NCBI GenBank assembly: GCA_035287205.1
Contig: DATEBV010000358.1
Coordinates: forward strand, 1-50,300
Source of the DNA: Chthoniobacterales bacterium
GTDB lineage: Bacteria > Verrucomicrobiota > Verrucomicrobiia > Chthoniobacterales > UBA6821
Reading direction: 5' to 3'
DNA: 50,300 nucleotides
A program made the position numbers and the translations under genes. Of this stretch, positions 10,052 to 50,300 are shown in pieces. The stretch's first letter is position 1; each line of letters starts with the position of its first letter. The notes under the pieces were generated by a model that ran no database searches, was not told the origin of the DNA, and worked only from the letters and a program-made list of their open reading frames with translations.

Positions 10052-10086
10052 TCGAAGGAGAGGAGGCAGAACGGTTATATTTTTGG

Positions 10087-24298: not shown

Positions 24299-24403
24299 AG
24301 CAGGTAACAGGTAGTAGATGACAGGCAGAAGAGTTGCTACTGAGCGATTTTTAAAACCAATTAACGGATGGGAAAATAAATTCGTTACTTGTCGTTACTA
24401 ACT

Positions 24404-24585
24404 CAGATATTTCATGCCCATCTACTACGACTTGCGAGAAACTTGATAAATACTGCGTTGGATTTGAATTTTTCTCTCTGCTAAAAATAATGTCCTTCTT
24501 ACAGCTACTGCGTTAAAATCCTTCGTCCACCTTGTCTTATCAAGCTTCGTGCTGCATCTCGCTACGATGTGTATGAAATATCCGG
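24404..24585 (-). repeat. Family E long-hairpin element, core-only copy (E1)
   Basis: cagatatttcatgcccatctactacgacttgcgag...gcgttaaaatccttcgtccaccttg...ctcgctacgatgtgtatgaaatatccg. Colinear with the reverse complement of E4; terminal stem atatttcat/atgaaatat. Confidence 0.82.
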
Positions 24586-24607
24586 GTTAACCTCCAAATT
24601 TATTTTT

Positions 24608-25369: not shown

Positions 25370-25641
25370 TCAAAACGGTTCGTTTTGGAAGTGATAACAC
25401 ACCAGTAATTTTTCTTAAAAACTAAAAGGATTAAAAAAAAGTAATTCTTAGGCTTGTCGTGACGATCTATTTTCTATTAAATAGAAGACATCGAAGGCAG
25501 TCCTTGTATTTCATTATTATCGCTGTCAGATGCAGCTATCATCAGCTTCTTGCAATTTGTACTTGATTGATGATAATATATTCTGGCTAGTGGGATCGTC
25601 TTTTGCAGCAGTTTTTATTTTAAAAAAAATAAAAATTTCTG

Positions 25642-25671
25642 TTGACTTCAATCTCTTTAATGCATTATGCA
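25642..25671 (+). promoter_or_regulatory. Candidate sigma-70-type promoter for OMP paralog 1
   Basis: TTGACT (25642-25647), 18-nt spacer, TATGCA (25666-25671), preceded by an A/T-rich tract; about 48 nt upstream of ATG 25719. Confidence 0.3.
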
Positions 25672-25718
25672 AGGGGGTCTCAGATACATTCTCAAATCAT
25701 CTCAAACCAATTAAATCT

Positions 25719-26270
25719 ATGAATAAAACATTATCACTACTTGCTATTGTTCTTGCAACGGCAGCTACGTCGTTCGCAGGCCAAACCTGTTCCAAAAAAG
25801 TTGTCTGTGCTCCTGAAGATTGCCGCTTTCGTGCTAACGAGTGGCAAGTTGACACCGCTGTTGTTGGTGGTGTAGGAAAGTATGGCAACAATTCCTTCGG
25901 CGCTCTTGGCGGCGGACTTGGAGTCAATTACTTCTGGTCAAAATACTTTGGTGTCGGCGTTGACGATTCTATTGGTGGTTTGAGACAATCAGGTAGCTCT
26001 TCGACTCAGTTCGTTAACAGTCTCCAGGCTGATCTCATCGCTCGTTATCCTATCTGCTCTTGGAATCTTGCTCCTTACGCCATGGTTGGTGGTGGTGGCA
26101 ACTGGACTAAGAGTGTTAGCCAAGGTAATGGTAACGTTGGTGGTGGTCTTGAGTACCGCCTCACTCGTAACGTTGGTCTCTTTGCTGATTGCCGTTGGCT
26201 CTACGGAAGCAATTCTGCTTCACGCCTCAGCGCAGCTCTCCCACGTGCAGGTGTTCGTTTAGCTTTCTAA
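25719..26270 (+). CDS. small beta-barrel outer-membrane protein, paralog 1
   Basis: Signal peptide MNKTLSLLAIVLATAATSFA/GQ, Gly/aromatic-rich strands, C-terminal ...VRLAF; ORF-track N-terminal extension rejected; own terminator. Confidence 0.75.
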   Translation: MNKTLSLLAIVLATAATSFAGQTCSKKVVCAPEDCRFRANEWQVDTAVVGGVGKYGNNSFGALGGGLGVNYFWSKYFGVGVDDSIGGLRQSGSSSTQFVNSLQADLIARYPICSWNLAPYAMVGGGGNWTKSVSQGNGNVGGGLEYRLTRNVGLFADCRWLYGSNSASRLSAALPRAGVRLAF

Positions 26271-26299
26271 GGTTTTTTAAGAAAGTTAATTTTAGTTTT

Positions 26300-26333
26300 A
26301 AACGGCGCTGGATTTATCCAGCGCCGTTTTTTT
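26300..26333 (+). terminator. Rho-independent terminator after OMP paralog 1
   Basis: aaacggcgctgg-attta-tccagcgccgttt followed by a T-run. Confidence 0.85.
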
Positions 26334-26494
26334 GCATCATACTTTTATTCTAATTGCTACAAACTGAAAATTATGCTTGCCATCTCCTTTTTGAAATTAG
26401 TACGATCACTAAGTTAAATTAACTAAATCTTTAGATAGCTAGATAGCTGTGCAGTTTTTTACAAGTTCTCTACATTTCTAAAACCCTAAAATCT

Positions 26495-27049
26495 ATGAAT
26501 AAAACATTATCACTACTTGCTATTGTTCTTGCAACGGCAGCTACGTCGTTCGCAGGTCAAACCTGTTCCAAAAAAGTTGTCTGTGCTCCTGAAGATTGCC
26601 GTTTCCGTGCTAACGAGTGGCAAGTTGACACCGCAGTTGTTGGTGGTGCTGGAACGTATGGTGATCATTCGTTCGGCGCCATTGGCGGTGGAATTGGGGT
26701 TAATTACTTCTGGTCAAAATATTTTGGTGTCGGTATTGACGATTCTCTTGGTGGCTTGAAAGAAACTTGTCATTCTAGTTCAACTGAGTTTGTTAATAGT
26801 TTTCAAGCGGATCTCATCGCTCGTTATCCTATCTGTTCTTGGAATCTTGCTCCTTACGCCATGGTTGGTGGTGGTGGCAACTGGACTCAGAATGTTAGCC
26901 AAGGTAATGGTAACGTTGGTGGTGGTCTTGAGTACCGCCTCACTCGTAACGTTGGTCTCTTTGCTGATTGCCGTTGGCTCTATGGAAGTAATGCTGCTTC
27001 ACGCCTCAGCGCAGCTCTTCCACGTGCAGGTGTTCGTTTAGCTTTCTAA
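26495..27049 (+). CDS. small beta-barrel outer-membrane protein, paralog 2
   Basis: 184 aa. Nearly identical to paralog 1 at the 5' and 3' ends and divergent in three internal patches; C-terminal F. Confidence 0.8.
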   Translation: MNKTLSLLAIVLATAATSFAGQTCSKKVVCAPEDCRFRANEWQVDTAVVGGAGTYGDHSFGAIGGGIGVNYFWSKYFGVGIDDSLGGLKETCHSSSTEFVNSFQADLIARYPICSWNLAPYAMVGGGGNWTQNVSQGNGNVGGGLEYRLTRNVGLFADCRWLYGSNAASRLSAALPRAGVRLAF

Positions 27050-27078
27050 GGTTTTTTAAGAAAGTTAATTTTAGTTGT

Positions 27079-27112
27079 AAACGGCGCTGGATTTATCCAG
27101 CGCCTTTTTTTT
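27079..27112 (+). terminator. Rho-independent terminator after OMP paralog 2
   Basis: aaacggcgctgg-attta-tccagcgcc followed by tttttttt. Confidence 0.85.
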
Positions 27113-27175
27113 GTAACTATTTAGATTGCATAGAATATTATTTTTGTTACTGTTTCGGTTCTTAAAAAATATATT

Positions 27176-27733
27176 ATGAATAAAACACTATCACTCCTTG
27201 CTATAGTCCTTATGGCAACAACGTCATTTGCAGGTCAAGCAGTTTCTTCGAAGAAGGTTGTTTGCACATCTGATGATTGCCGCTTCCATGCTAATGAATG
27301 GCAAGTTGATGTATCTACTGTAGGCGCTGTAGGTGTTTATGGTGGTCAAAACAAACAGGCGCTAGGAGCTAATCTAGGAGTGAATTACTTCTGGTCAAAA
27401 TACTTTGGTGTTGGTATTGATAACTCAGTTGGTAGTGAAAGAAATGCTGGGATGACAGGGTTTAATGGATTGCAGGCTTACGACAGTCTTCAAGCGGATC
27501 TGATCGCTCGTTATCCTATCTGTTCTTGGAATCTTGCTCCTTACGCCATGGTAGGTGGTGGTGCAAGTTGGGGTCCTGCTAGCCAAGGCAATGGTAATGT
27601 TGGTGGGGGTTTGGAATATCGTTTAATGAAGAATGTCGGTTTCTTTACTGATTGTCGTTGGCTTTATGGTAATAATGGGACTATGTCACTGAGCATGGCG
27701 ATGCCACGTATAGGTATGCGTTTGGGTTTCTAA
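27176..27733 (+). CDS. small beta-barrel outer-membrane protein, paralog 3 (more divergent)
   Basis: 185 aa; same architecture (signal peptide, CRFxANEWQVD, LQADLIARYPICSWNLAPYAMVGGG, C-terminal ...RLGF). Confidence 0.8.
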   Translation: MNKTLSLLAIVLMATTSFAGQAVSSKKVVCTSDDCRFHANEWQVDVSTVGAVGVYGGQNKQALGANLGVNYFWSKYFGVGIDNSVGSERNAGMTGFNGLQAYDSLQADLIARYPICSWNLAPYAMVGGGASWGPASQGNGNVGGGLEYRLMKNVGFFTDCRWLYGNNGTMSLSMAMPRIGMRLGF

Positions 27734-27751
27734 GGCAAAAAATAATTGTAA

Positions 27752-28213
<462 letters not shown>

Positions 28214-33306: not shown

Positions 33307-33734
33307 AAAGTTTGGTGTGGAGATTATTAAAATTATGATCACTTTTTCTCAAAGAAATATTGATGGATTAAGAAGTAAGGCTACAGCATTTTTGAATGAA
33401 GAGCAAAATATCAAAAAATCGAGATAAAGCTAAGGTAACCAAAAAAATTGGCTGCCGGGATGAACTCCCTGCAGTCTGCAGTCTGTACTCTGCAATTTGT
33501 TACCGTGCTATTCTAAAAAAGAAGCGAATTTATACTCAAGAAAAAAGCAATCGATACTTATAATATATTTTCTAAAAAAGAATCAAAATGCTTGACCTGG
33601 ATGTCACTTCTCGACAGTGAAAGGTGAGAAGTGAAGTGGAAGCAATAGGGCTAAAAATAGAAGATAATCTTATTATATAGGATAATTTATTTTTTTAATT
33701 TTATCTATTAACCAGTGCGATAGTGACTTAAAAA

Positions 33735-33914
33735 GTATATTTCATGCTCCTGTACTATGGCTTGCAAGAAGCTTAATAAATACTGTGTCGGATCTGAACC
33801 GTTATCTTCGCTAAAATAATACCCTTCTATAGTCACTGCGTCAAAATCCTTCGTTCTTTTTGTCTTATTAAGTTTTGTGTTGCGTCTTATTACGACGTCT
33901 ATGAAATAGACGGG
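33735..33914 (-). repeat. Family E element, core-only copy (E2)
   Basis: gtatatttcatgctcctgtactatggcttgcaag...gcgtcaaaatccttcgttc...cttattacgacgtctatgaaatagacggg. Very close to E1; contains the symporter stop codon (33899-33901). Confidence 0.82.
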
Positions 33915-35500
33915 CTCATCGTTTTGTGGTTTTCGGTGCGAAAAGGTAAGGCACAAATCATCGTGACCATGCTTCCTATAAAAACATACCAGGGCCAAGA
34001 AATCTCGGGCCACCAAGTTGGCATGAAATGAGCAAATTTGATAATACCTGGGAGTTCTACTTTTCCAAGAAAGAGAACACTGGTCATGCCAATCACCATA
34101 GCGATAACATTTGTTTTATCATTCCCCCGTGTTTTTGTAAGCATGCCAATTAAGAAGATACCTAGTAGCCCCCCATACGTATAACCTAAGATGCCAATGG
34201 CAATCGGAATAATAGTTAGCCGAGGATTTAGAAGTACAGAATAAGCGGCTATTGTAGCAACGCCTACCATAAGTAATCCAAAGATGAGGGTGGCTCTGCG
34301 AGCGGCCCTTACCGAAGTTCGCTCATTTGCAAGAGGGTTGATATAGGGGAGATAAAAATCGGTAGTGAAACTAGTTGCCAAGGCATTGAGTGATGCTGAG
34401 GTGGATCCCATCATGGTTGCCAAAACACCAGCAATAATTAGTCCACGTAATCCGACGGGGATATTATGGATAATAAAGTAAGCAAAAATTTCATTGTCAG
34501 GTATTGCAGGAGCACTTTCCATGTGTGAATAGTAAACAAAGAGAAGGATGCCAATACTCAGGAATCCTAGAGCCAGTGGAATATCAGCAAATCCACTTAA
34601 GATAAGGGAGAGTCTTGATTTGTTGACATTGGAAGCGGTCAGAAGACGTTGTACCATATCTTGATCGGTGCCATGAGTGGCCATGGTAAGAAAGGTAGCG
34701 CCAACTAAAGCAGCTGGGAGAGTATACGGTTCAGCTAACATTTTTGAGAGAGCAGGTCCAAAAGGGAGTGTTGTATCCCATCCACTTTGAATCCATTGAA
34801 GGTTTTGCCAACTACCAAAAGTTTCTTTTACAGTATGAATTCCACCAATACGATAGAGTAGGAGCCAGATAGTAAAGAAAAGAGAGCCAATCATTAAGCT
34901 TGCCTGAATGAGGTCAGTCCAGACAACAGCCTTAATTCCGCCAACCATGGTATAGATTGTCGTAATGAGAGTAATTAGCAAAATTCCCCAGAAGTAGTGA
35001 GTAAGAGTTGTTGGTGTTGTCGGATAAAAGTAATGCCAAAGGACAACCAGGATAAGACCTCCTAAGTAGAGGCGGACTCCAATTCCCAAAACACGCGTAA
35101 AAAGAAAAATAGCACTGGCAGTATTTTTCGTTGCTGGGCCAAAACGAACGGTGAGAAATTCATAGATACTTCTAACGCGGTAACGGTAATAAGGAGAAAT
35201 AAAAGTATAGGCAATAATAATACGGGCTAGAATTGTTCCAATAGCTAGTTGGCCATAGAAAAAAGCACGTGTCTTAAACCCTTCCGCAGGAGTTCCCAAA
35301 AATGTTGCGGCACTTGTTTCTGCTGCAATAATGGAAGCTAAGATTGCCCACCAGGGAAGGGCATGGCCGCCAAGTGAAAATTCTTCTAAAGTTCGGTTAT
35401 TGCGTCCTGCATAAAGTCCAATGCCGATAATTACGACAAAGTAGAGCAATATAATAGATGAATCAATGGATACAGAGTACCAAGTAATGGGGTTATCCAT
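33899..35500 (-). CDS. sodium:solute symporter (SSF) family transporter
   Basis: 533-aa polytopic membrane ORF with SSF-like helices (e.g. GGIKAVVWTDLIQ). Stop codon lies in the terminal stem of repeat E2. Confidence 0.8.
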   Translation of the reverse strand: MDNPITWYSVSIDSSIILLYFVVIIGIGLYAGRNNRTLEEFSLGGHALPWWAILASIIAAETSAATFLGTPAEGFKTRAFFYGQLAIGTILARIIIAYTFISPYYRYRVRSIYEFLTVRFGPATKNTASAIFLFTRVLGIGVRLYLGGLILVVLWHYFYPTTPTTLTHYFWGILLITLITTIYTMVGGIKAVVWTDLIQASLMIGSLFFTIWLLLYRIGGIHTVKETFGSWQNLQWIQSGWDTTLPFGPALSKMLAEPYTLPAALVGATFLTMATHGTDQDMVQRLLTASNVNKSRLSLILSGFADIPLALGFLSIGILLFVYYSHMESAPAIPDNEIFAYFIIHNIPVGLRGLIIAGVLATMMGSTSASLNALATSFTTDFYLPYINPLANERTSVRAARRATLIFGLLMVGVATIAAYSVLLNPRLTIIPIAIGILGYTYGGLLGIFLIGMLTKTRGNDKTNVIAMVIGMTSVLFLGKVELPGIIKFAHFMPTWWPEISWPWYVFIGSMVTMICALPFRTENHKTMSPSIS

Positions 35501-43622: not shown

Positions 43623-43651
43623 TTTGTTTGTTTCGGCTTTAATGAATCATT

Positions 43652-43885
43652 AGACTTCTTTGAAAATTCGCCTATGCTAATGAAGTACAAGGAGTCTACG
43701 GCGCGCAAAACCTGAGTGTACAGCAGTACTCGATGGTTTAAGATCGAAACTTTTATTTCCATCGTAGCGAGACGTAGCGTTCATCGAATCTTCCGCAAGT
43801 CGTAGTAGATGGAAATAAAAGTTTCGTTCTAACACCGGAGCGACGAAGTAATTTATTAGCAGAAGTAGAATTTCCAAAGAAGTCT
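43652..43885 (+). repeat. Family E element with outer arms and an internally deleted core (E3)
   Basis: Outer arms: agacttctttgaaaattcgcctatgctaatgaagtac / gtaatttattagcagaagtagaatttccaaagaagtct. Inner 22-bp stem: 43742-43763 / 43808-43829. 28-nt block cctgagtgtacagcagtactcgatggtt at 43711-43738. Ends 1 nt before ATG 43887. Confidence 0.85.
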
Positions 43886-43886
43886 T

Positions 43887-44522
43887 ATGAAACGACAATT
43901 TGTCCAAGAGATGGGGCGTAGCCCCCGTTTTACCATTCTTGAGTTACTCCGATGCTCAGAAGGAGGGCTTCCTGTTGATGATCTCGCGACAAAGCTTTCG
44001 ATGAGTTATATGGGAGTTAAAGCTCATTGCCTTGAAATGGACGATGAAGGATACCTCGAAACATGGCGTCAACCAGGAAAACGTGGTCGTCCTCGGATGC
44101 TCTATCGGTTAACAGAAAAAGCTTATGATCTTTTTTCTGAAGAGAAAAATGATCTGGCTCTTTCATTTCTTACTGTCTCAAAGAAGCTTTTTGGTGCTAC
44201 AGCACCTCAGAAAATTTTGATGCTTCATTATCGTGCCGTTTCTGCCAAGTATAATGAGCAGATCAAAGGTGCTACGACAGAAGAACGAGCAGCTTCTTTT
44301 GCTCGTATACGTCATCGTGAAGGATATCTCAGTGATTTTGAGGAAGGTCCTCCTTGGCGTATTATTGAGAATCACTATCTTTATCGCGATCTTTTAATGG
44401 CCTATCCCGAAGTGGATGCCTTTGAATGTCAGATGATCAGTGAAGTTCTTGGTGTGCCCGTACGGCGTGAAGTGACGATGGTTGCAGGATTGTATCGGGC
44501 AATTATTAGCAGCAAGCTGTAA
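43887..44522 (+). CDS. winged-helix (ArsR-like, COG2345-type) transcriptional regulator
   Basis: 211 aa; N-terminal wHTH with GKRGRPRMLYRLT wing motif; the start codon is abutted by the 3' arm of repeat E3. Confidence 0.65.
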   Translation: MKRQFVQEMGRSPRFTILELLRCSEGGLPVDDLATKLSMSYMGVKAHCLEMDDEGYLETWRQPGKRGRPRMLYRLTEKAYDLFSEEKNDLALSFLTVSKKLFGATAPQKILMLHYRAVSAKYNEQIKGATTEERAASFARIRHREGYLSDFEEGPPWRIIENHYLYRDLLMAYPEVDAFECQMISEVLGVPVRREVTMVAGLYRAIISSKL

Positions 44523-44941: not shown

Positions 44942-46351
44942 ATGCATTCTTTTCATTACAATCATGGAACTTTTCACTGTGAAGAAGTTGATCTAACTAC
45001 CGTCGCTAAAGAGGTGGGAACACCAGCTTATGTCTACTCAGCGAAAACTGTTCTTGAAAACTACCGTCGTCTTAACCAGGCATTAAATCCTCTCGATCGG
45101 ATGATTTGCTATGCAGCCAAGGCCAATAGTAATCTTGCTATCCTTGGTTTATTAGCCAAAGAGGGAGCTGGGTTTGATATTGTTTCTGGAGGAGAGCTCT
45201 TTAAAGTATTGAAAGCAGGAGGACGTGCTGATCGTTGTACTTTTGCCGGCGTAGGGAAAATGGTTTTTGAAATTGAATATGCACTTAAGCAAGGAATTTA
45301 TTGCTTTAACGTTGAGTCAGAGGGGGAGTTAGAGCTTATCAATGAGGTAGCCGAACGACTTGGGTGTGTGGCTCCTATAGCTCTTCGTGTAAATCCTGAT
45401 GTTGATGCACCAACGCATCATTATATTTCTACAGGGAAGAGTAAAAATAAATTTGGCATTGGGCTCGATCGCGCTGAAGCTGTTTATGCGCGTGCAGCAG
45501 CACTTCCTTATCTTAAGATTCGGGGGCTCCAGACGCATATTGGTTCTCAGATTTTAGACGCAGCTCCTTTTGCAGAGGCTGTCCATAAATTGACGCCCCT
45601 TGTTAGGAAGCTTCAAAAACTTTATGGATTAGAATTTTTTAGTATAGGAGGGGGTGTAGGGATTGGCTATCGTGGCGCTTTAGCAAGTGATCCGGCTTGC
45701 ATGAAGCCGATGACTGCGGCGTTGGACTCGAAATCTTTCTCAGGCAGTATGCCCCTATACAGCCATCCTCAGATTTCATCGTCCGCCTTGCAGCATCGCC
45801 GTCCTGCGTCGCCGGATAATGAGGTATCAGGTCTGAGTCCAGAGGCCTATGCAGCTCAAGTTATTGAACCACTACGAGCGCTTGGTTTAAGGATTCTTTT
45901 TGAACCTGGGCGTTTTATTGTTGGTAATGCAGGGGTGCTTTTAACAACAGTTCTCTATCGCAAGTCGACACCTGCCAAGAATTTTCTGATTGTTGATGCT
46001 GGTATGAATGACCTTATTCGTCCTGCACTCTATCAAGGCTATCATGAAATTGAACCACTTCGGGAACCCATTGATCGTCCTCTAGAAAAGATCGATGTAG
46101 TCGGTCCTGTCTGTGAGAGTGGTGATTTCTTTGCTCAAGATCGTATGATACCTCGTGTTGAACCTGGAGAACAAGTAGCACTCATGAGTACGGGAGCTTA
46201 CGGTTTGGTGATGGGTTCTAATTATAATGCACGTCCTATGCCACCCGAAGTTCTCGTGGAAGGAAAAAAAGCGACCGTGGTGCGGAGACGGCAGACCTGG
46301 GAGGATCTTATTAGCCTGGAGGTACATATTCGGCCAACAGGCCAAATATAA
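44942..46351 (+). CDS. lysA: diaminopimelate decarboxylase carrying an in-frame repeat insertion
   Basis: PLP-Lys context YAAKANSNLAIL, GGGVGIGY, VVGPVCESGDFF. About 45-50 extra residues after GIGYRG are encoded by E-family core 45690-45817. C-terminal IRPTGQI is read through the C3 hairpin. Confidence 0.9.
   Translation: MHSFHYNHGTFHCEEVDLTTVAKEVGTPAYVYSAKTVLENYRRLNQALNPLDRMICYAAKANSNLAILGLLAKEGAGFDIVSGGELFKVLKAGGRADRCTFAGVGKMVFEIEYALKQGIYCFNVESEGELELINEVAERLGCVAPIALRVNPDVDAPTHHYISTGKSKNKFGIGLDRAEAVYARAAALPYLKIRGLQTHIGSQILDAAPFAEAVHKLTPLVRKLQKLYGLEFFSIGGGVGIGYRGALASDPACMKPMTAALDSKSFSGSMPLYSHPQISSSALQHRRPASPDNEVSGLSPEAYAAQVIEPLRALGLRILFEPGRFIVGNAGVLLTTVLYRKSTPAKNFLIVDAGMNDLIRPALYQGYHEIEPLREPIDRPLEKIDVVGPVCESGDFFAQDRMIPRVEPGEQVALMSTGAYGLVMGSNYNARPMPPEVLVEGKKATVVRRRQTWEDLISLEVHIRPTGQI
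45690..45817 (-). mobile_element. Family E core (E5) inserted in frame within lysA
   Basis: Ordered shared blocks with the reverse complement of E4: cggcttg, gatga, ctgcg, ggact, cagtatg, atacagcc, tcgtcc, gccttgca. Inverted ends atccggc (45690) / gccggat (45811). Visibly more GC-rich than the flanking lysA sequence. Confidence 0.72.
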
Positions 46352-46465
46352 GTTTAAGTTTTAAGTTTAAGTTTAAGTTGATTTTTGGTCACTTCGTGAC
46401 AAAGTGAAAAGTGAAGCGGCATTTTTATTTGCACCTAGTTTTTTGCTTTCAAAGTCGCTTCAGGA
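46326..46465 (+). repeat. Family C element, long form (C3), overlapping the lysA 3' end
   Basis: atATTCGGCCaacaGGCCAAATataagtttaagttttaagtttaagtttaagttgatttttGGTCACTTCGTGACaaagtgaaaagtgaagcggc...gtcgcttcag. The lysA stop (46349-46351) follows the hairpin. Confidence 0.9.
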
Positions 46466-49797: not shown

Positions 49798-49960
49798 TTT
49801 ATAATTTATCGTTGTTCTCGAAAAAGAGCATCAAAAAAATCTATTCTATTCTTCAAATAGAATTACTTACAGTCAGTAGACTCTAAGTAGGCCTATTGAC
49901 TGAATAGTTACGTCTATCTGAATACAATTCTTATGAATATATCAAAATCTTCTGAAAAGA

Positions 49961-50282
49961 GAGTTCTTTCCAAACTCGCTTCTGTTGATGAAGTGCAAGG
50001 AGTCGACGGCACGCAGAACCTGAGTGTACAGCAGTACTCGATGGTTCAAGATCGGATGTTTCATACACATCGTAATGAGGCGCAGTGCAAGGCCGATGAG
50101 GTCAGGAGGACGAAGGATTTTGATGCAGGGCTGTATGTTTCATACTGTCCCAGTCAAAATCCAAGTCCGACGCAGCATTCATCGAGCCTTCCTCAAGCCG
50201 CAGTAGATGAGGATGAAATATCCGATCTAACACCGGCGCGACGAAACAATTCATCAGCAGAAGTAGAGCTTGGAAAGAACTC
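49961..50282 (+). repeat. Family E element, full-length copy (E4, about 320 bp)
   Basis: Outer arms 49961-49995 / 50247-50282. Inner stem agatcggatgtttcat (50049-50064) / atgaaatatccgatct (50213-50228). Apical stem ggattttga...tcaaaatcc with tip gtatgtttcatac. An identical 28-nt block lies at 50019-50046. Confidence 0.85.
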
Positions 50283-50300
50283 TACGGGGTATTGGCTTGT

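What the first reader, a model, noticed from the sequence alone, without database searches (positions are those of the whole stretch)
45674..45830. lysA carries an in-frame insertion derived from the family E core
After the conserved GGGVGIGY motif, LysA has about 45-50 extra residues (ALASDPACMKPMTAALDSKSFSGSMPLYSHPQISSSALQHRRPASPDNEVS). The normal ...PEAYAAQVIEPL... region resumes afterwards. The corresponding DNA is visibly more GC-rich than the rest of the gene and has inverted ends atccggc / gccggat. It shares an ordered series of blocks with the reverse complement of E4: cggcttg, gatga, ctgcg, ggact, cagtatg, atacagcc, tcgtcc, gccttgca. The ORF stays open, so an essential PLP enzyme either tolerates a roughly 50-residue loop or the segment is removed at the RNA or protein level. 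I could not identify a clean target duplication.
Basis: partly seen in the sequence, partly recalled or inferred. Interest (0 to 1): 0.75.

Follow-up and report, generated by a model that had tools for sequence, protein, structure and literature searches.

The report
Palindromic repeat inserted in-frame in lysA

Summary

- **The insert.** lysA (44942-46351, +) has 42 extra codons (P251-D292, 45692-45817) after the GGGVGIGY motif. They are absent from every solved LysA and from the 119 closest homologues.
- **Its origin.** The DNA is a near-perfect 128-nt hairpin (45690-45817, 57% GC). It is homologous, in antisense orientation, to the apical core of repeat family E:
  - nhmmer E = 2e-8 to 8e-13;
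  - shuffle z = 21;
- **The family.** E is a nested palindromic, MITE-like family. An outer element O encloses an inner element I. I counted 23 copies in 120 kb of this genome (Verrucomicrobia bacterium RIFCSPHIGHO2_12_FULL_41_10). Eight sit inside long ORFs, including a heptosyltransferase, a TolC-like protein, an Fe-S assembly protein and an epimerase. Related copies are in-frame in genes of other Verrucomicrobia MAGs.
- **Effect on LysA.** AlphaFold keeps the LysA fold (TM 0.90-0.92 to solved structures) and predicts residues 249-293 as disordered. The host loop varies from about 3 to 30 residues in relatives.
- **What was excluded.** There is no intron, intein or Rfam signal.
- **Best reading.** This is a Rickettsia-palindromic-element-like insertion that is translated and tolerated.
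- **Still unexplained.** Only the apical hairpin is present. It is read in a third frame. It is the most stable hairpin in the family.

The parts
44942..46351 (+). lysA (diaminopimelate decarboxylase), 469 aa, intact ORF that hosts the insertion
   Evidence: ORF list. PDB LysA matches at E = 3e-123. Pfam PF02784 + PF00278. It carries all 146 columns that are invariant across an alignment of 55 LysA sequences. The AF2 model has TM 0.90-0.92 to solved DAPDC structures.
45690..45817 (-). 128-nt palindromic core of repeat family E, antisense relative to E4. The net insertion is 126 nt = codons 251-292 (45692-45817), encoding PACMKPMTAALDSKSFSGSMPLYSHPQISSSALQHRRPASPD.
   Evidence: Hairpin z = -3.55. 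nhmmer E = 1.9e-8, 1.9e-10 and 8e-13. Shuffle z = 21. Aligned to HMM positions 40-171 of 202, which is symmetric about the apex. pLDDT is below 50 for residues 249-293.
45689..45691 (+). GAT (D250) at the left junction. It is repeated at the right junction (45815-45817, D292). This could be a 3-nt duplication or microhomology, or chance.
   Evidence: Read directly from the sequence. A 3-nt repeat is weak evidence.
45815..45817 (+). GAT (D292), right-junction copy of the triplet
49959..50298 (+). E4: full long form (outer palindrome O plus inner element I). It is open in the sense frame from ATG 49933, and the contig ends in it.
   Evidence: Long HMM 344 bits. Hairpin z = -8.95. Translation.
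43650..43888 (+). E3: O plus I, with the central ~92 nt of I lost between two ACGCAG/ACGTAG direct repeats. It ends at the ATG of ORF 43887-44522.
24397..24592 (-). E2: inner element I alone (short form), intergenic, with stops in all six frames
33726..33922 (-). E1: inner element I alone. It overlaps the stop end of the SSF transporter gene (33899-35500, -).
46321..46361 (+). Copy of a second, unrelated repeat family (TATTCGGCCAACAGGCCGAATA hairpin). It supplies the last ~9 codons (VHIRPTGQI) and the stop of lysA.
   Evidence: Repeat family D7. C-terminal alignment against homologues and the repeat copies.

Best explanation
A copy of the apical hairpin of a non-autonomous, nested palindromic repeat family ("E": outer palindrome O of about 135 nt enclosing inner element I of about 190 nt) became inserted into lysA. 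The family is abundant in this Verrucomicrobia genome. The insertion lies between the codons for ...GALASD and NEVSGLSPEAY... and adds 126 nt.

Because the length is a multiple of three and the reading frame used has no stop, the gene stays open. The element is transcribed and translated as part of LysA. It forms a 42-residue, Ser/Pro-rich, probably disordered excursion. This sits in a loop between the PLP-phosphate-binding GGG strand and the next barrel helix. That loop already varies from about 3 to 30 residues among relatives, so the enzyme tolerates it. Nothing removes it.

- **Shown:** the insertion, its homology to the family and its orientation, the hairpin, the family's copy number, the family's frequent in-frame residence in other genes, and an intact LysA sequence and predicted fold.
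- **Inferred:** that the protein is made with the loop and is active, and that purifying selection filtered for a frame-preserving, stop-free copy in a tolerant loop.
- **Not resolved:** how the copy arrived (transposition in trans versus templated copying from another E copy).
For: - **Insert absent from homologues.** It is missing from solved LysA structures and from 119 homologues.
- **Homology to E.** E = 1.9e-8, 1.9e-10, 8e-13; shuffle z = 21; eight colinear blocks.
- **Hairpins.** The insert folds as a hairpin and so do E copies. The family consensus structure has 47 pairs, 23 of them with compensatory changes.
- **Copy number.** There are 23 E-family elements in 120 kb of this genome, 8 of them inside long ORFs.
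- **Host genes identified:**
  - GT9 heptosyltransferase and OEP/TolC-like protein;
  - an NAD-dependent epimerase and a TPR protein, which I identified from ORF translations;
  - the Fe-S assembly protein, confirmed by my own Pfam scan, with glycosyltransferase, metallo-beta-lactamase, PurK-like, PIG-L, Obg and kinase domains among the database hits;
  - STAS, AsmA-like, erythromycin esterase and TRCF among the database hits, from source names and precomputed Pfam.
- **Open frames.** Long copies are open in one sense and one antisense frame even when intergenic.
- **Other Verrucomicrobia MAGs.** I-type copies are in-frame in AroB (twice), DUF2071 and a DsbH-like protein.
- **Dynamic element.** In near-identical contigs of the Fe-S gene, the inner element is present in one and absent in the other.
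- **LysA intact.** All 146 invariant columns are kept. The AF2 model has pTM 0.83, and residues 249-293 have pLDDT below 50. TM to solved DAPDC structures is 0.90-0.92.
- **Reproducible.** The same sequence occurs in six or more independent contigs or runs.
- **Precedent.** In-frame palindromic elements are described in PMC10969869 (which cites Ogata et al. 2000) and PMC5896051.
Against: - There are no expression, proteomic or enzymatic data. Tolerance is inferred from sequence conservation and a structure prediction.
- The loop follows the PLP-phosphate-binding motif on the catalytic face of the barrel (my knowledge of the fold), so an effect on activity cannot be excluded.
- The lysA copy is atypical for the family:
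  - It contains only the apical 128 nt.
  - It lacks the TA-type flanks seen at most O and I ends.
  - It is only 60-67% identical to every sampled copy.
  - It nevertheless has the most stable hairpin of 22 equivalent segments.
- No empty-site allele or close lysA orthologue exists in the databases; the next best is 73% identical. The ancestral junction is therefore inferred.
- I could not check whether the genome has a second lysA.
Confidence: 0.82

Rival explanations
1. Same insertion, different route of arrival. The hairpin was not transposed as a unit. It was copied into lysA from another E copy by template switching or microhomology-mediated repair, or a full-length I element inserted and both arms were later trimmed.
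For: - Only a GAT triplet flanks the insert, and there are no TA flanks of the kind seen at most O and I ends.
- No other core-only copy was found in about 160 kb of this genome, nor among the protein-database hits.
- At the Fe-S gene, the with-I and without-I alleles differ by three substitutions at the junction in otherwise identical DNA. That looks like exchange between copies rather than clean insertion or excision.
Against: - The ends are exactly symmetric about the hairpin apex (HMM 40 and 171 of 202) and form a 7-bp terminal inverted repeat. Two independent trimming deletions would not be expected to produce that.
- In the frame lysA uses, the sampled long copies carry a stop just outside the core. 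A full-length intermediate would have truncated LysA.
Confidence: 0.3
2. The insertion has inactivated or crippled lysA, so the gene is a young pseudogene or is redundant with another copy.
For: - The insert lies about 10 residues after the PLP-phosphate-binding GGG motif.
- The gene's 3' end has also been overrun by another repeat.
- The genome is full of repeats, with 12% of the window covered by intra-window repeats.
Against: - The ORF is intact, and all 146 columns invariant across an alignment of 55 LysA sequences are kept.
- The predicted fold is unperturbed.
- The host loop is naturally variable.
- The sequence is identical across assemblies, with one aa difference in another run.
- Many other genes carry in-frame E modules and keep both flanking halves of their domains.
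Confidence: 0.08
3. The segment is removed after transcription or translation, as a small intron, an RNase-processed hairpin followed by religation, or an intein-like element.
For: The RNA would form a very stable hairpin.
Against: - Rfam gives no match at gathering thresholds in the window.
- The permissive scan gave only three matches, at E = 0.07-0.9 and well below gathering score, to snoRNA and ALIL models.
- 128 nt is far below group I or group II intron sizes.
- 42 aa is far below mini-intein size, and the junctions (D|P ... D|N) lack the Cys/Ser/Thr and His-Asn residues (read directly from the sequence, combined with established intein knowledge).
- The same family is read through in at least two other frames and in both orientations in other genes. 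That argues against a specific splicing signal.
Confidence: 0.03
4. The extra loop is a lineage-specific loop expansion unrelated to the repeats, or an assembly chimera.
For: The loop is length-variable in relatives. Assemblies do break and vary at repeats: the contig ends in E4, and the mismatches between assemblies fall inside repeats.
Against: - The homology statistics are strong.
- The insert lies in the middle of a contig in five other assemblies made with different assemblers, and in a second run.
- The reading frame is preserved.
Confidence: 0.01

Closest known systems
Rickettsia palindromic elements (RPE; Ogata et al. [quoted passage not shown]
   Same: - A palindromic repeat of about 100-150 nt present in many copies.
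- A large fraction of copies inserted in-frame in unrelated housekeeping genes.
- The element consensus is stop-free in particular frames, so each insertion adds a 30-50-aa (here up to ~108-aa) peptide.
- Insertions are predicted to be compatible with the host fold.
- No clear target duplication at the lysA copy.
   Different: - A different phylum (Verrucomicrobiota MAGs from an aquifer and other environments). I did not compare the sequences with RPEs, so homology is untested and should not be assumed.
- The family is nested (O encloses I), with each layer found alone as well as combined.
- The lysA copy is only the apical hairpin of I and is read in a third frame.
Bacterial MITEs with intragenic in-frame copies (Coxiella QMITE1/2, PMC5896051; intragenic ERIC elements and Anabaena MITEs, as listed in PMC10969869)
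   Same: - Small, non-autonomous and multi-copy, with terminal inverted repeats and hairpin-forming.
- Some copies fuse in-frame to ORFs or supply C-terminal residues and stop codons. E1 at the SSF gene end does the latter.
- Most O and I ends are flanked by TA, which is compatible with IS630/Tc1-type target duplication.
   Different: - No parental IS or transposase was identified.
- The TA could be part of the inverted repeat rather than a duplication.
- The lysA copy has no TA flanks.
- The share of genic in-frame copies (8 of 23 sampled) is much higher than is usual for MITEs and is closer to the RPE situation.
REP/BIME elements mobilised by RAYT transposases (PMC3733652)
   Same: Repeated extragenic palindromes that form hairpins. 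A different family in this window (TATTCGGCCAACAGGCCGAATA at gene ends) resembles REPs in size.
   Different: E elements are 130-330 nt rather than 20-40 nt, lack GTAG/CGTC heads, and occur inside genes.
Mini-inteins and self-splicing introns in essential genes
   Same: An extra in-frame segment inside a conserved enzyme.
   Different: The segment is too small, has no junction residues and no Rfam match. It is a multi-copy element read in several frames and in both orientations.

Membership tests
RPE-like in-frame palindromic element (functional class, not sequence homology) | Multi-copy palindromic repeat of about 100-150 nt or more | tested here: met
   There are 23 family elements in 120 kb of the same genome. 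Hairpin z-scores range from -3.6 to -9. 23 of 47 consensus pairs show compensatory changes.
RPE-like in-frame palindromic element (functional class, not sequence homology) | Copies inserted in-frame in unrelated protein-coding genes, splitting conserved domains | tested here: met
   Hosts include lysA, GT9, OEP, Fe-S assembly, epimerase, TPR, AroB and DUF2071 proteins.
RPE-like in-frame palindromic element (functional class, not sequence homology) | Element consensus free of stops in defined frame(s) | tested here: met
   Long copies are open in one sense and one antisense frame even when intergenic. The lysA core is open in three of six frames.
RPE-like in-frame palindromic element (functional class, not sequence homology) | Insertion site compatible with the host protein's fold (surface loop) | tested here: met
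   This rests on prediction only. AF2 gives pLDDT below 50 for residues 249-293, and the rest of the fold matches DAPDC at TM 0.90-0.92. The loop is length-variable in 119 homologues.
Rickettsia RPE families (sequence membership) | Sequence similarity to RPE-1 to RPE-10 consensus sequences | not tested
   No RPE sequences were available in the tools used. The organism is in a different phylum, so membership is not claimed.
MITE | Terminal inverted repeats, small size, no transposase gene | tested here: met
   O ends are TTAGAmC...GkTCTAA, I ends are (TTA)ACCCGGATATTTCATAC and its complement, and the lysA core ends are ATCCGGC/GCCGGAT. Elements are 128-330 nt.
MITE | Target-site duplication | tested here: inconclusive
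   Most O and I copies are flanked by TA on both sides, but this cannot be separated from the inverted repeat. lysA has only a GAT triplet. No empty site is available.
MITE | Parental autonomous IS with matching ends | not tested
A DDE_3 (IS630-type) gene fragment was seen only in a distant relative's contig, L020.
Intein | At least ~130 aa with Cys/Ser at the N-junction and His-Asn plus Cys/Ser/Thr at the C-junction | tested here: not met
   The insert is 42 aa and the junctions are D|PAC... and ...SPD|N.
Group I/II intron or other catalogued structured RNA | Match to an Rfam covariance model | tested here: not met
   There are 0 matches at gathering score in the window. The permissive scan gave only E = 0.07-0.9 chance-level matches.
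Diaminopimelate decarboxylase (host gene) | PLP-binding Lys, GGG phosphate loop, EPGR and CESGD motifs, two-domain fold | tested here: met
   K60, G236-238, E321-R324 and C391-D395 are among the invariant columns. PDB E = 3e-123.

The most novel reading that the evidence does not exclude
Family E may be an RPE-like system of Verrucomicrobiota that is still active. It is a three-tier nested palindrome whose layers move or exchange independently; the Fe-S gene has alleles with and without the inner element. It has remodelled dozens of proteins, including essential enzymes.

In lysA, the hairpin itself may be maintained by selection or by intra-palindrome conversion. It is the most stable hairpin in the family despite about 35% sequence divergence. 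If so, it acts at the nucleic-acid level, for example as an mRNA structure that affects translation or decay of lysA, and is not merely tolerated.
Probability: 0.15. Interest if true: 0.7.

Novelty: new member of a known kind. Interest (0 to 1): 0.45.

Why it matters
In-frame palindromic "selfish DNA" inside housekeeping genes is best known from Rickettsia. It bears on how new peptide segments arise in proteins. Here the same phenomenon appears in uncultured Verrucomicrobiota, where about a third of the sampled copies lie inside genes. One copy sits in an essential PLP enzyme, right after its cofactor-binding motif.

This gives a second, independent system in which to ask:
- which loops tolerate such insertions;
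- whether the hairpin or the peptide is the selected feature;
- how nested palindromes spread.

There is also a practical point. These elements inflate protein lengths, break assemblies, and generate spurious small "hypothetical proteins" in MAG annotation. Dozens of 60-110-aa database entries are simply translated copies.

Tried and rejected
- **Genome-contig scan** with the conserved E block GRACGAAGGATTTTRAYGCAG. It gave only three chance hits in unrelated bacteria.
- **Contig look-up for P0132.** Not on record.
- **Peptide search in the lysA reading frame.** Only LysA itself matched, so no other protein is known to read the element in that frame.
- **Search for a closer source subfamily.**
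  - The virtual sense-frame peptide of the lysA core resembles the 'MKSDDGC' I-type modules of other MAGs.
  - At DNA level, however, the lysA copy is equally distant (60-67%) from both subfamilies.
- **Search for an empty-site allele or a close orthologue.** The next LysA is 73% identical and not syntenic. The only other member of its protein cluster also carries the insert.
- **Rfam**, at gathering and at permissive thresholds. Nothing credible.
- **E3 as evidence that the core excises precisely.** Rejected. Its 92-nt gap lies between ACGCAG/ACGTAG direct repeats and is asymmetric, so it is a slippage deletion.
- **Intein, intron, chance similarity and assembly chimera.** Each was considered and rejected; see the rival explanations.
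Full report
**1. The observation**

lysA is a single intact ORF at 44942-46351 (+), 469 aa. A search against solved structures gives LysA at E = 3e-123. The match splits into two stretches: query 3-246 and 299-460 correspond to residues 25-269 and 275-437 of the Brucella enzyme. About 47 residues after GGGVGIGY therefore have no counterpart.

The 119 best homologues among 5.8 billion proteins are 416-475 aa and at most 73% identical, and those that carry a source name are annotated as Verrucomicrobia or Chthoniobacterales. None has the segment. Their loop at this site is itself variable, from about 3 to 30 residues, typically ALASGDxAWWK...ERLxPE.

Comparison with the shortest-loop relatives places the insertion between ...GALASD and NEVSGLSPEAY.... 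It spans codons 251-292, 126 nt at 45692-45817. The DNA from 45690 to 45817 is 57% GC, against 44% for the rest of the gene and 42% for the window. It begins with ATCCGGC and ends with GCCGGAT. It folds as one long hairpin (z = -3.55; none of 200 dinucleotide shuffles folds as well).

**2. Homology to family E**

- A profile built only from the three E cores elsewhere in the window hits 45691-45810 on the minus strand at E = 1.9e-8.
- A profile of seven long copies gives E = 8e-13.
- The insert alone, used as a query, finds E copies on independent contigs of the same genome at E down to 1.9e-10. The orientation is always the same and nearly the full length is covered.
- A local-alignment shuffle test gives a score of 71, against 19.8 +/- 2.4 (maximum 31 in 1000 shuffles).

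Neither is the second (orthologues sharing the loop).

**3. Source organism and reality of the insert**

The same LysA, with the insert, is encoded on contigs from five other assemblies. One of them is GCA_001830205.1. They differ from the window at 0-6 positions, and those positions fall mostly inside repeats. A further run gives the same 469-aa protein with one substitution. Source names identify the organism as Verrucomicrobia bacterium RIFCSPHIGHO2_12_FULL_41_10. The window ends at the same position as one of these contigs, inside E4, as expected if assemblies break at a repeat.

**4. Anatomy of family E**

A scan of JGI metagenome contigs with a conserved E block recovered seven more contigs of this genome. 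One further genome contig (L018) came from the Fe-S gene look-up. The window and these eight contigs together total 120 kb and hold 23 family elements. Alignments show a nested design:

- **O**, an outer palindrome of about 135 nt, with ends TTAGAmC...GkTCTAA.
- **I**, an inner element of about 190 nt, with ends (TTA)ACCCGGATATTTCATAC and its complement.

The forms found are O+I (about 325 nt, e.g. E4), O alone, and I alone (E1, E2).

E3 is O+I with 92 nt lost between ACGCAG/ACGTAG direct repeats. That is an asymmetric slippage deletion, not a precise excision.

The consensus structure has 47 pairs, 23 of which show compensatory double changes. So the palindrome is maintained across copies.

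The lysA segment matches positions 40-171 of the 202-position I model. That range is exactly symmetric about the apex. lysA therefore holds only the apical hairpin of I, with its own 7-bp terminal inverted repeat.

**5. The family lives inside genes**

Long copies are free of stops in one sense frame (...ADEVQGVDGAQKLSVQELLDASGADISSPS...RRTKDFDAGLYVSYC...) and in one antisense frame (...APVLERIVSSPSTTTCGRLDECCVGLEFGLGQYETYSPASKSFVRLASS...). This holds even for intergenic copies.

Eight of the 23 sampled elements lie within long ORFs, with conserved sequence on both sides. The hosts include:

- a GT9 heptosyltransferase and a TolC-like OEP protein;
- an NAD-dependent epimerase, a TPR protein and an Fe-S assembly protein.

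A protein-database search with the two module peptides found 22 further proteins from this MAG and from Chthoniobacterales MAGs. They include glycosyltransferase, erythromycin esterase, metallo-beta-lactamase, PurK-like, STAS, AsmA-like, PIG-L, phosphoglucomutase, Obg, protein kinase and TRCF proteins.

An exhaustive HMMER search found 64 representative proteins. They include an AroB carrying two I modules and a DUF2071 protein split by one. Contigs from other Verrucomicrobia MAGs show I copies inside DUF2071 and DsbH-like genes. Many other hits are 60-110-aa 'hypothetical proteins' that are simply translated intergenic copies.

In two near-identical contigs (1 mismatch in about 6 kb of flank), the Fe-S gene carries O+I (290 aa) in one and O alone (230 aa) in the other, with three substitutions at the junction. 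The elements are therefore dynamic. This looks like exchange between copies rather than clean insertion or excision. I cannot exclude an assembler effect.

**6. Consequences for LysA**

- The protein retains every one of the 146 columns invariant across an alignment of 55 LysA sequences. These include the PLP lysine, the GGG loop, EPGR and CESGD.
- AlphaFold2 with that alignment gives pTM 0.83. It places residues 249-293 at pLDDT 31-37, with almost no secondary structure, between strand 232-236 and helix 300-312.
- The model superposes on solved diaminopimelate decarboxylases with target-normalised TM 0.90-0.92.
- The 42-aa peptide is rich in Ser and Pro.
- The loop follows the phosphate-binding motif on the catalytic face of the barrel. 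This is my knowledge of the fold; it was not measured here. An effect on catalysis cannot be ruled out. However, natural length variation at the same site argues for tolerance.

**7. Rivals**

- **Removal at the RNA or protein level.**
  - Rfam gives nothing at gathering thresholds. The permissive scan gave only chance-level matches.
  - The segment is far too small for an intron or an intein, and the junctions lack intein residues.
  - The family is read through in several frames and in both orientations elsewhere.
- **Pseudogene or crippled gene.** This cannot be excluded without experiments. The perfect retention of invariant residues argues against it.
- **Chance similarity or assembly chimera.** Both are excluded by the statistics and by the independent assemblies.

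**8. How it got there and what remains odd**

The lysA copy differs from the rest of the family in five ways:

- It is the only core-only copy in about 160 kb sampled from this genome, and among all protein hits.
- It lacks the TA flanks seen at most O and I ends. It has only a GAT triplet at both junctions.
- It is translated in a third frame. Its peptide ...MTAALDSKSFSGSM...SSSALQHRRP... lines up with the non-canonical antisense frame ...MNAALDLNLDLGSM...PSSALPHRFP... of long copies. In those copies that frame is closed by a stop just outside the core. A full-length element in this frame would therefore have truncated LysA.
- It is only 60-67% identical to every sampled copy of either subfamily.
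- It nevertheless forms the most stable hairpin of 22 equivalent segments (-34.3 against at best -25.1 kcal/mol).

Three explanations are possible, and I cannot decide between them:

- an unsampled short, GC-rich subfamily exists;
- the hairpin was copied in by a templated repair event;
- the stem is being maintained, by selection or by intra-palindrome conversion.

**9. Comparison with what is known**

The closest analogue is the Rickettsia palindromic elements. These are 100-150-nt palindromes, many of them inserted in-frame in unrelated metabolic genes, with insertions predicted to be compatible with the protein fold (Ogata et al. 2000, as reviewed in PMC10969869). Bacterial MITEs with occasional in-frame or C-terminal fusions are also comparable (Coxiella QMITEs, PMC5896051; ERIC elements and Anabaena MITEs).

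The present case meets the functional criteria of that class. I did not test sequence membership in the RPE families, and I do not claim it.

A literature search found no description of such elements in Verrucomicrobia or of this MAG. Absence from the searchable library is not proof that none exists.

I rate this as a new member of a known kind. The wider family (nested, gene-invading, spread across Verrucomicrobiota MAGs) is the more interesting result.

Noticed in passing
window 46321-46361 (other copies at 10085, 14820, 18483, 37864, 48874): A second repeat family (TATTCGGCCAACAGGCCGAATA hairpin followed by an AAGTTT-rich tail) overlaps the 3' end of lysA. It supplies the last ~9 codons (VHIRPTGQI) and the stop; homologues end ...WEDLVRGE... 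instead. The same encoded peptide (IRPTGRI / IRPVGRIV) appears at the C-terminus of P0122 and twice inside the L013 membrane-protein ORF.
   Followed up: partly
L018 3001-3873 vs L019 3001-3693: The Fe-S assembly gene exists as two alleles in near-identical contigs from two assemblies. One has the outer element plus the 180-nt inner element (290 aa). The other has the outer element only (230 aa). There are three substitutions right at the junction and 1 mismatch in about 6 kb of flank.
   Followed up: partly
window 33726-33922 and 33899-35500 (-): Element E1 overlaps the stop end of the SSF-family transporter gene, so its last few codons and its stop come from the repeat.
   Followed up: no
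window 43650-43888 and ORF 43887-44522: Element E3 ends exactly at the ATG of the downstream 211-aa ORF. The repeat may supply that gene's translation-initiation region or its promoter.
   Followed up: no
window 49933-50298: E4 lies in an ORF that starts at ATG 49933 and is open through the whole element to the end of the contig. The contig ends inside the repeat, so it is unknown whether this is another in-frame genic copy.
   Followed up: no
P0142 and P0126 (protein database): A further ~90-nt element, encoding ...GGPRDRLRRAELEQPEGRAERERAS..., is nested inside the right arm of the outer element in an AsmA-like protein. P0133, which is otherwise near-identical apart from a longer N-terminus, lacks it. 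This is a third layer of nesting.
   Followed up: no
L023 1189-3534, L023 9054-9980; P0151, P0193: In other Verrucomicrobia MAGs, I-type elements sit in-frame in a DsbH-like thioredoxin protein, a DUF2071 protein and 3-dehydroquinate synthase (two copies in one AroB).
   Followed up: partly
L026 8934-9956: In this genome a gene with a nucleoside-diphosphate-kinase domain is 340 aa, whereas NDK is normally about 150 aa. It may carry insertions or be a fusion.
   Followed up: no
window, many sites (e.g. 1031, 1943, 2919, 9943, 10354, 18685, 20004, 21779, 35587; and 5662, 39545, 43564, 44551, 46536, 46595): At least two more abundant repeat families are present. One is a ~100-nt hairpin, GTTCAGATCC..CCTCCGAAGGAGG..GGATCTGAAC. 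The other is an A-rich unit, AATAGCCACAAAAGAACACAAAGAA. In total, 12% of the window is covered by intra-window repeats.
   Followed up: no
window 25530-27790: Three tandem paralogous genes (246, 184 and 185 aa), each followed by the same terminator-like hairpin (repeat families D1, D3, D10, D17).
   Followed up: no
L020 9812-10122 (GCA_049314455.1): A more distant Chthoniobacterales MAG, whose LysA lacks the insert, carries a diverged I-type element that is itself interrupted by other sequence. The same contig has an IS630-type DDE_3 transposase fragment.
   Followed up: no
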